DNA of 64,000 nt. It comes from Eledone cirrhosa (Eukaryota). A program made the position numbers and the translations under genes. Each line of letters begins with the position of its first letter. Positions within the stretch are counted from its first letter, which is position 1. This document shows, piece after piece, positions 37,428 through 38,200 of this stretch. Location of the stretch: NCBI GenBank assembly GCA_964016885.1, contig OZ024743.1, positions 177,258,001 through 177,322,000 on the forward strand, in the 5' to 3' direction. The notes under the pieces are model-generated. The model searched no databases. It had not been told where the DNA came from and was given only the letters and a program-made list of their open reading frames with translations.

Positions 37428-38200
37428 GATAAAAACAAATAACGAAACGAAATTAAATTTCGTTTTGTTTGTAACTCACTTTTGTATGACTGACGCTTAA
37501 ACAATTAAGTTAAAGATGTACATCCATATATGTATACTGAAATACTAGTATGTATATGAATACACACACGTATACATATGTAGATGTACCAAGTTTTTTC
37601 ACTGGTCACTTTACTGTGAGTGGCCAGCTATTCTGTATGTAAACACACAGACAAACCGGTTTTTAGAGTCATACTGGTTTTTGAGGAAACACCTTTCCTC
37701 TATTCTCCAGAAAGCCAGACAAGGAATATTGAACTAGTTTCGTTGTTGTTACAACTCATCAGCAATATTTACCTATCTTCCGGCCTCTCTAGAGAATCGT
37801 AAAAGCACATATCGTTATATGCTTTTTCTATGAAAATTAGTAGTGGGCAGACTAATTTGCACAGAGTGTGAGTAAGTACCGGTCCAACGGAGACGATAAA
37901 AACAAATAACGAAACGAAATTAAATTTCGTTTTGTTTGTAACTCACTTTTGTATGACTGACGCTTAAACAATTAAGTTAAAGATGTACATCCATATATGT
38001 ATACTGAAATACTAGTATGTATATGAATACACACACGTATACATATGTCTGTGTGTTTACATACAGAATAGCTGGCCACTCACAGTAAAGTGACCAGTGA
38101 AAAAACTTGGTACATCTACATATGTATACGTGTGTGTATTCATATACATACTAGTATTTCAGTATACATATATGGATGTACATCTTTAACTTAATTGTTT
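37428..38200 (-). mobile_element. Partial-tandem (467-bp period) + inverted HHR mini-element in (TA)n
   Basis: 37428-37580 is repeated at 37895-38047; 38047-38200 is the reverse complement of ~37498-37652. Confidence 0.88.
37725..37769 (-). ncRNA. Canonical minimal type I hammerhead ribozyme
   Basis: AATATTG-CTGATGA-GTTG(TAACAA)CAAC-GAAAC-TA-GTT-CAATATT; perfect 7-bp stem I, G-C closed stem II, palindromic stem III. Confidence 0.9.

What the first reader, a model, noticed from the sequence alone, without database searches (positions are those of the whole stretch)
37428..38200. Youngest-looking element: perfect HHR in a 467-bp more-than-unit-length repeat plus inverted arm
Seen: ~150-bp direct repeats that look identical by eye, 467 bp apart, one textbook HHR between them, a ~150-bp inverted copy, and (TA)n on both ends; no meaningful ORF. 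Inference: the more-than-monomer length is what reverse transcription around a circular (or tandem) RNA would give. This is the best candidate for a currently active member.
Basis: partly seen in the sequence, partly recalled or inferred. Interest (0 to 1): 0.7.

Follow-up and report, generated by a model that had tools for sequence, protein, structure and literature searches.

The report
Ribozyme retroposon with Penelope insertion signature
This is one of thousands of copies of a 467-base non-coding repeat with a hammerhead self-cutting-RNA motif, likely pasted into TA microsatellites by a Penelope-type enzyme copying one RNA from both broken DNA ends; this copy has only one ribozyme motif, so it is likely a dead-end product rather than an active source.

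Summary
In detail: two identical 154-bp repeats 467 bp apart, one type I hammerhead (HHR) motif, an identical 156-bp inverted arm, (TA)n on both sides and no ORF. It is not a local accident: the 45-nt ribozyme core matches exactly 4,843 times in the 3.0-Gb genome. The family is a non-LTR retrozyme with the Penelope-like (PLE) insertion signature of two head-to-head arms. In 112 of 147 end-anchored insertions, one arm ends with a 70-nt tail and the other stops just before it; none had two like ends (two tail-less pairs were seen outside these samples). The arms share alleles, yet the tail-less arm often holds sequence the other lacks (35 of 78). Both DNA ends were therefore likely primed separately on one RNA. 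Arms cross the cleavage site without scars, which fits a circular or uncleaved tandem template; the two cannot be told apart here. 'Best active candidate' is not supported: one HHR cannot release a monomer, a private allele shows no daughters, and 23 of 63 tested loci have arms as identical. No autonomous partner was found. The proposed junction-read test cannot detect a circle. Known class; useful mechanistic footprint.

The parts
37428..38201 (.). Whole insertion: two head-to-head arms whose 3' ends face outward into (TA)n
37428..38048 (-). Tail-bearing arm, 621 nt = unit positions 314-467 followed by one full unit 1-467 (1.33 units)
37428..37894 (-). One full 467-nt retrozyme unit, 35% GC, no ORF, highly structured
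37428..37581 (-). Direct repeat copy 1 (154 nt)
37895..38048 (-). Direct repeat copy 2 (154 nt, identical, including an allele rare in the family)
37428..37497 (-). 70-nt PLE-type 'tail' (unit 398-467) with a predicted hairpin; lies between the two fixed family ends; second copy at 37895-37964
37725..37769 (-). Type I hammerhead motif with minimal palindromic helix III; predicted cut between 37732 and 37731 (GUU); cleavage not tested
38046..38201 (+). Tail-less inverted arm, 156 nt = unit positions 242-397, ending at the second fixed family end
38046..38048 (.). Inner junction of the two arms, 3-nt overlap (microhomology)
37370..37427 (.). Left (AT)n tract; with (CA)n at 37336-37370 it follows the end of another repeat family whose other copies also end in (TA)n, so the target tract likely pre-existed
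38202..38330 (.). Right (TA)n tract

Best explanation
This is a short insertion of an abundant non-coding 467-nt repeat that carries a type I hammerhead motif (a non-LTR retrozyme) and was likely mobilised in trans by a Penelope-like RT-endonuclease. Inferred steps: (1) multi-unit arrays are transcribed, and their dimer-type ribozymes likely cut out unit RNAs that may be ligated into circles; (2) the enzyme likely cuts both strands of a (TA)n tract; (3) each DNA end likely primes reverse transcription on the same RNA, one at the end of the 70-nt tail and one just before it; (4) each cDNA runs a variable distance through the ribozyme site, on a circle (about 55%) or an uncleaved tandem transcript (about 35%); (5) the two cDNAs are likely joined head-to-head through a few overlapping bases. 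Shown here: the arm geometry, the two fixed ends, the shared alleles, the copy numbers and the unscarred crossing of the cut site. This copy has one ribozyme motif and no detected daughters, so it is likely a product and not a source.
For: Family size: 4,843 exact matches to the 45-nt HHR core, control 0; 1,954 tail-plus-TA junctions; 505 tail-less-plus-TA junctions with a narrower pattern. End rule: of 107 tail-anchored insertions, 82 have an inverted arm ending at unit 390-398 or its short motif and none has a second tail; of 40 tail-less-anchored insertions, 30 have a tail arm and none a second tail-less arm. TA follows 104 of 107 tail ends and 76 of 78 mapped tail-less ends. Separate priming: the tail-less arm cannot be a copy of the tail arm in 35 of 78 and 17 of 28 loci; arm lengths are alike (medians 538 and 527 nt, n=108) and weakly correlated, rho 0.25. 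One template: own-arm distance averages 0.5% against 6.5% to other loci, and the own arm is nearest or tied in 54 of 63; 14 locus-private alleles span both arms. Junctions overlap in 50 of 78. HHR under selection: 24 cells with two-sided changes, 0 of 500 shuffles, in 10 chosen sequences from two related families. An autonomous PLE of this genome shows the same rule in 8 of 8 loci where both outer ends were seen. Literature: tail, inverted truncated copy and (TA)n bias in PLEs (PMC8557442); a purified PLE extends both strands, starts at two internal sites bounding the tail, and uses uncleaved RNA (PMC11167929).
Against: No autonomous PLE sharing the ends was found among five families inspected, so the driver is inferred from the footprint alone. 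The tail is 70-75 nt, longer than the 30-40 nt described for PLEs. In this locus the inverted arm is wholly contained in the other arm, so fold-back copying is not excluded for it individually. Mirror-like junctions are somewhat enriched (13 of 78 against 6.8 expected). 17 of 107 insertions show one arm only and 4 have a second arm ending elsewhere. Two tail-less/tail-less insertions exist (L083; L382, hand-picked). In vitro the PLE showed no strand difference in start site, which does not predict strict pairing. Inner ends are slightly enriched at the cut site (9 of 252 against 4.3, p 0.03, window chosen after looking), so some templates may be cleaved linear RNA. Gene conversion could also make arms alike. 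The covariation sample is small and related, and two clades supply most changes.
Confidence: 0.65

Rival explanations
1. Same PLE-driven, two-ended insertion, but the template is an uncleaved linear multi-unit transcript read through a genomic array. No circle is involved and the ribozyme is idle at insertion.
For: The purified PLE prefers unprocessed RNA and HHR mutants insert normally (PMC11167929). Only 1 of 9 Xenopus retrozyme dimers cleaved in vitro (10.64898/2026.07.22.740005). Homogeneous arrays long enough to be such templates exist: 20 near-identical units at one locus and a 68.6-kb stretch with units at both sampled ends. No scar at the cut site is expected under this model too.
Against: Ribozyme helices covary and the core is invariant across the 10 aligned sequences, so cleavage matters at some step. 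23 locus-private alleles sit in every copy of their locus (16 of 126 loci), as a single-unit bottleneck would give, although homogenised source arrays would too. Animal retrozymes accumulate as circles in mussel and axolotl (PMC7229834).
Confidence: 0.35
2. One priming event only. The inverted arm arises by fold-back or template switch onto the new cDNA, or by self-priming on an antisense template as proposed for rotifer PLEs.
For: In the window the inverted arm is contained in the other arm and joins it through a 3-nt overlap. Arms share alleles. 13 of 78 junctions are mirror-like. The hypothesis is in print (PMC3846280).
Against: The tail-less arm is longer than the tail arm in 31 of 78 and not containable in it in 35 of 78. 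Its outer end is fixed and joined to (TA)n in 76 of 78. 65 of 78 junctions are not mirror-like. In the autonomous family, extra CT repeats occur at tail-less ends only (12 of 24 against 0 of 31 read-through copies), which fits a start site better than a stop site.
Confidence: 0.12
3. The template is the cleaved linear monomer, and tandem units arise because the RT jumps from the 5' end back to the 3' end of the same or another monomer.
For: Slight excess of inner ends near the cut site (9 of 252 against 4.3). Earlier unreviewed notes propose re-copying for PLE stubs in other genomes (not tested here).
Against: Only 2 indels in 458 crossings of the cut site, equal to background; jumps would have to be precise almost every time. 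Arms up to 13-15 units long occur.
Confidence: 0.1
4. A single-locus DNA duplication or a misassembly among TA repeats.
For: Periodic variants confined to one arm show later DNA-level expansion in some long arrays. No contig was listed that bridges this exact inner junction (the table was cut).
Against: Thousands of dispersed copies with the same two ends. The same build appears in a sister family in the window and in an autonomous PLE. The unit is present in contigs of six public runs.
Confidence: 0.03

Closest known systems
Metazoan non-LTR retrozymes (Cervera and de la Pena 2020, PMC7229834; Li, Clavereau and Pollet 2026, 10.64898/2026.07.22.740005)
   Same: Non-coding, low-GC head-to-tail units, each with a type I HHR; thousands of copies from partial monomers to long arrays; PLEs in the same genome; PLE mobilisation proposed.
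   Different: The unit is 467 nt, above the 170-400 nt of the 2020 paper but inside the 51-972 bp of the 2026 preprint. The parts of those papers that I read argue the PLE link from co-occurrence and pLTR homology and describe no insertion ends; here the ends carry the PLE tail and inverted-arm signature. Circles and cleavage were shown there and are untested here.
EN+ Penelope-like element insertions: partial tandem, inverted 5'-truncated copy, tail (Craig et al. 2021, PMC8557442; Arkhipova et al. 2013, PMC3846280)
   Same: Head-to-head arms, a tail at one end only, variable 5' truncation, (TA)n bias, HHR in the terminal repeat.
   Different: No ORF; the tail is 70-75 nt, not 30-40; no autonomous relative found. 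Those papers describe the tail as optional and ascribe it to endonuclease resolution, or the inversion to self-priming; here the two ends pair almost strictly one of each and the arms look separately primed.
Poseidon PLE of Anolis in vitro (Frangieh et al. 2024, PMC11167929)
   Same: Two internal RT start sites bounding the tail, both target strands cut and extended, AT-rich target, uncleaved RNA usable.
   Different: Autonomous, different clade; no strand preference for the start site was seen, and the paper's main text does not link the two start sites to the two arms of one insertion (its supplementary figures were not read).
Twin priming of LINE-1 (recalled, not from a call)
   Same: Both target strands prime on one RNA and give an inverted 5' segment joined through microhomology.
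   Different: In LINE-1 the second primer anneals at variable internal sites and the arms do not overlap; here the second site is fixed 70-75 nt from the first and the arms overlap in sequence.

Membership tests
Non-LTR retrozyme | Type I HHR in the repeat unit | tested here: met
   (below Rfam gathering score, full core, covarying helices)
Non-LTR retrozyme | Short head-to-tail units of low GC | tested here: met
   465-470-nt units in arrays; 35% GC
Non-LTR retrozyme | No protein-coding capacity | tested here: met
   longest ATG ORF 30 aa in the insertion and in a tandem dimer
Non-LTR retrozyme | 'Active' copy: two consecutive units with an HHR (criterion of the 2026 preprint), this locus | tested here: not met
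   one HHR in 37428-38201; 49 of 107 family loci span two or more HHR positions in one arm
Non-LTR retrozyme | Self-cleavage of the transcript | not testable with these tools
   bench assay needed
Non-LTR retrozyme | Expressed as circular RNA | not testable with these tools
   no raw RNA reads available to lay; the circle junction equals the genomic sequence
Non-autonomous PLE derivative | Partial tandem plus inverted 5'-truncated copy | tested here: met
Non-autonomous PLE derivative | Tail at one end only | tested here: met
   112 of 147 end-anchored insertions have one end of each kind; the tail is 70-75 nt, not 30-40
Non-autonomous PLE derivative | Microsatellite (TA)n insertion bias | tested here: met
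   76 of 78 mapped tail-less ends in the tail-anchored sample; the anchoring ends were partly selected for TA
Non-autonomous PLE derivative | Terminal homology to an autonomous PLE pLTR | tested here: inconclusive
   none in five families inspected; the genome holds more families than were inspected
Non-autonomous PLE derivative | Target-site duplication | tested here: inconclusive
   hidden in TA tracts; shared interruptions on both sides seen by eye in a few loci, not counted
Autonomous PLE | RT plus GIY-YIG ORF | tested here: not met

The most novel reading that the evidence does not exclude
PLE integration is a programmed double priming on a single RNA. One enzyme complex cuts a (TA)n tract and hands its two DNA ends to two fixed start sites flanking the tail hairpin of one ribozyme-made RNA circle. 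Both RTs then roll round the circle, and the cDNAs are joined head-to-head. This would explain tail, inverted pLTR and partial tandems in one stroke, replace the antisense self-priming idea, and give direct genomic proof that animal retrozymes ride PLE machinery. Extra CT repeats at the tail-less start site of the autonomous family would be telomerase-like stuttering at initiation.
Probability: 0.35. Interest if true: 0.65.

Novelty: new member of a known kind. Interest (0 to 1): 0.42.

Why it matters
The class is known, and this locus is an ordinary short product. The family matters because how PLEs make tandem and inverted insertions is still called open (PMC8557442; PMC11167929), and the retrozyme-PLE link rests on co-occurrence and homology. 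About two thousand young insertions of one small unit give a readable record: two fixed ends paired one of each, arms of independent extent from one template, and no scar at the ribozyme site. That turns a vague model into predictions that a published in vitro PLE assay could test with a 467-nt linear, dimeric or circular RNA.

Tried and rejected
Expression: no RNA holder was listed among six runs from four studies, which says nothing for or against transcription. Contig lays show the unit in the five runs laid, but no listed piece bridges this inner junction and the tables were cut: inconclusive. A 497-nt contig in run X5 covers one unit plus 30 nt; a circle and a tandem array would both give that, so I did not use it. 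Insertion polymorphism could not be tested, because contigs break at the TA tracts. Autonomous partner: five PLE families were checked for shared ends with no match beyond TA-rich noise. They were the window's 31801-32631 family (12 loci), the young 777-aa family (30 search loci and 20 long stretches, overlapping), the L153 family (30 loci), the L140 family (query locus read; its 25 search loci not scanned) and a family 72% identical to it (11 loci). A search for tails that continue into non-unit sequence gave 67 matches; of the 30 read, all but one were unit variants or TA ends. Periodic unit variants as evidence for dimer or trimer circles: rejected, because they sit in one arm only. The 29 genome matches to the window's rare tail allele are not siblings in the 12 loci read. 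miRNA-family hits are far below gathering score and come from TA-rich hairpins. Earlier-finding look-ups near the locus and by sequence returned nothing. Literature: six searches found no description of this family or of the one-of-each end rule for retrozymes; one search paired a guessed animal group with ribozyme terms and gave nothing relevant. The library lacks most subscription papers.

Full report
Observation. Read on the minus strand, the insertion is an inverted arm (unit positions 242-397), a 3-nt overlap, then unit positions 314-467 and one full 467-nt unit. The single hammerhead has the full core, a 7-bp stem I, a 5-bp stem II and a 2-bp helix III inside a palindromic hexamer. It scores below Rfam gathering. 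Such a short palindromic helix III is described as needing a second ribozyme nearby to fold as a dimer (PMC4209133, part 1 of 4 read). In 10 sequences that I chose from this family and a sister family, 6 of 16 pairs change on both sides (24 cells, 0 of 500 shuffles), but related sequences inflate this measure.

Family. The genome is 3.0 Gb with contigs up to 443 Mb; the host was not determined. The 45-nt ribozyme core matches exactly 4,843 times. The tail-plus-TA junction matches 1,954 times and the tail-less-plus-TA junction 505 times; both are exact-pattern lower bounds. Copies range from about 88% to 99% identity to the window's unit. Arrays run from fragments to 13-15 units per arm, and one stretch of 68.6 kb has units at both sampled ends.

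Sample. I mapped 107 tail-anchored insertions, mostly from contig C1. They were chosen from the best DNA hits, the listed core matches and the listed tail junctions. One segmental duplicate was dropped, and five stretches with no match to my tail pattern were left out. I also mapped 40 of the 100 listed tail-less junctions. The samples are not random.

End rule. In the first sample 82 of 107 have an inverted arm ending at unit 390-398 (78 mapped, 4 by a short motif); 17 show one arm, 4 have a second arm ending elsewhere and 4 are cut off; none has a second tail. In the second sample 30 of 40 have a tail arm and none a second tail-less arm. Two tail-less/tail-less insertions were seen outside these samples. 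This is the PLE signature of partial tandem, inverted truncated copy and a tail at one end (PMC8557442, passages read), with a longer tail. A young autonomous PLE in this genome (777-aa frame; 99 of 145 listed hits tie at the top score, 100% identical over 264 aa) has two fixed ends about 40 nt apart and one of each in 8 of 8 loci where both outer ends were seen. I call it Neptune/Nematis-type only from a CX4CXXC motif before the GIY-YIG domain; no tree was built.

How the second arm is made. Fold-back predicts that the inverted arm is a sub-copy of the first. It is not in 35 of 78 and 17 of 28 loci, and it is the longer arm in 31 of 78. Yet the arms come from one source: 0.5% mean distance within a locus against 6.5% between loci, own arm nearest or tied in 54 of 63. 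Junctions overlap in 50 of 78, are blunt in 11 and carry inserts in 17. The simplest reading is that both ends of a cut (TA)n tract prime on the same RNA at two fixed sites and the cDNAs are joined by microhomology. This agrees with a purified PLE that cuts and extends both strands and starts at two internal sites bounding the tail (PMC11167929, parts 1-3 of 4 read, supplements not read). It disagrees with the antisense self-priming idea (PMC3846280, passages read), although a modest excess of mirror-like junctions (13 of 78 against 6.8) leaves room for fold-back in a minority. For the window's own copy the two routes cannot be told apart.

Template. A cleaved linear monomer would stop the tail arm at 303 nt. 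86 of 107 tail arms and 60 of 78 tail-less arms run past the cut site, with 2 indels in 458 crossings against 2.06 expected. Inner ends are only weakly enriched there (9 of 252 against 4.3, p 0.03, post hoc). The template is therefore continuous at that site: a ligated circle or an uncleaved multimer. Alleles private to a locus are mostly in one copy (217), as later mutation gives, but 23 are in all copies, 14 of them across both arms. The window's two direct repeats share an allele that matches only 29 times in the genome. That fits a single-unit bottleneck, but homogenised source arrays or gene conversion would give the same. Circles are documented for other animal retrozymes (PMC7229834, passages and parts 3-4 of 6 read); uncleaved RNA works in vitro. 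I put the circle at about 55%.

This locus. It is young but not special: 23 of 63 loci have identical arms, and its nearest relatives differ by 0.6-0.9%. It has one ribozyme, so it fails the two-unit criterion for an active retrozyme (10.64898/2026.07.22.740005, parts 1-3 of 5 read, supplements closed). Its private junction allele occurs once, so no daughter spanning that junction exists in this assembly. A read-through transcript would be predicted to fold into a 156-bp duplex. The left TA tract follows the end of another repeat whose other copies also end in TA, so the target likely pre-existed. Better source candidates are the homogeneous multi-unit arrays, for example C1:30.83-30.84 Mb.

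Novelty. Non-LTR retrozymes and their proposed PLE origin are published, and so are the tail and inverted copy of PLEs. I found no paper stating the one-of-each end rule with independently extended arms (searches; most subscription papers are outside the library). An unreviewed note from this scan reports the same geometry for a different 426-bp family in this genome; it is a lead, not independent support. The driver enzyme remains unidentified, and cleavage, expression and polymorphism are untested. Verdict: real, a new member of a known kind, interest 0.42.

Noticed in passing
window 25345-25965: Sister retrozyme family with the same head-to-head build, tail hairpin and tail-less end; HHR at 25714 (+) with the same helix III; homologous to the 467-nt unit in several blocks.
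   Followed up: partly
L095 2452-4791; L282-L301: Very young autonomous PLE, unit about 4.85 kb, 777-aa frame plus an upstream frame of about 400 aa, long microsatellite-like 3' UTR, two fixed ends, and a possible U3-A8 hammerhead variant read by eye. Its ends do not resemble the retrozyme's.
   Followed up: partly
L283, L285, L294, L297, L299, L301, L197 (tail-less ends of that PLE): The element's own two CT units are extended to 3-45 units at 12 of 24 tail-less ends and at 0 of 31 read-through copies. No AG tract lies within 170 nt of the opposite end in 7 of 7 two-arm loci with an extension. This looks like RT stuttering at initiation that seeds (CT)n microsatellites; not found in the listing.
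   Followed up: partly
G000:C5 87.618-87.686 Mb (L378-L380): About 68.6 kb with retrozyme units at both sampled ends (94-96% identity), single orientation, ending in tail plus (TA)n: a retrozyme likely turned satellite.
   Followed up: partly
window 37141-37320; also 18278-18397 and 39359-39476: End of another very abundant repeat family with hairpins and hammerhead-like words in unusual order, ending in (TA)n; may be the rearranged-hammerhead family of earlier notes, not tested.
   Followed up: no
window 7241 (-), 48980 (+): Further type I hammerhead motifs of other repeat families that recur in fetched loci.
   Followed up: no
window 30895-32864 (+): Broken PLE with RT and C-terminal endonuclease remnants from a family with 61,362 first-look candidates; an HHR-like motif lies downstream.
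   Followed up: partly
window 49532-64000: 14.5-kb satellite of a 48-bp unit (reported with periods 96 and 144) with strong GC skew and long stop-free frames.
   Followed up: no
window 15228-15656 (-), 39912-40319 (+), 43256-45515 (+): Fragments of a helicase, a helix-turn-helix transposase-like frame and a LINE-type endonuclease-RT; Pfam hits are weak and the labels are recalled.
   Followed up: no
L035, L038, L088, L101 flanks: TA flanks carry the same short interruption repeated several times, in most of these loci on both sides, as if a small target piece were copied repeatedly at insertion; seen by eye only.
   Followed up: no
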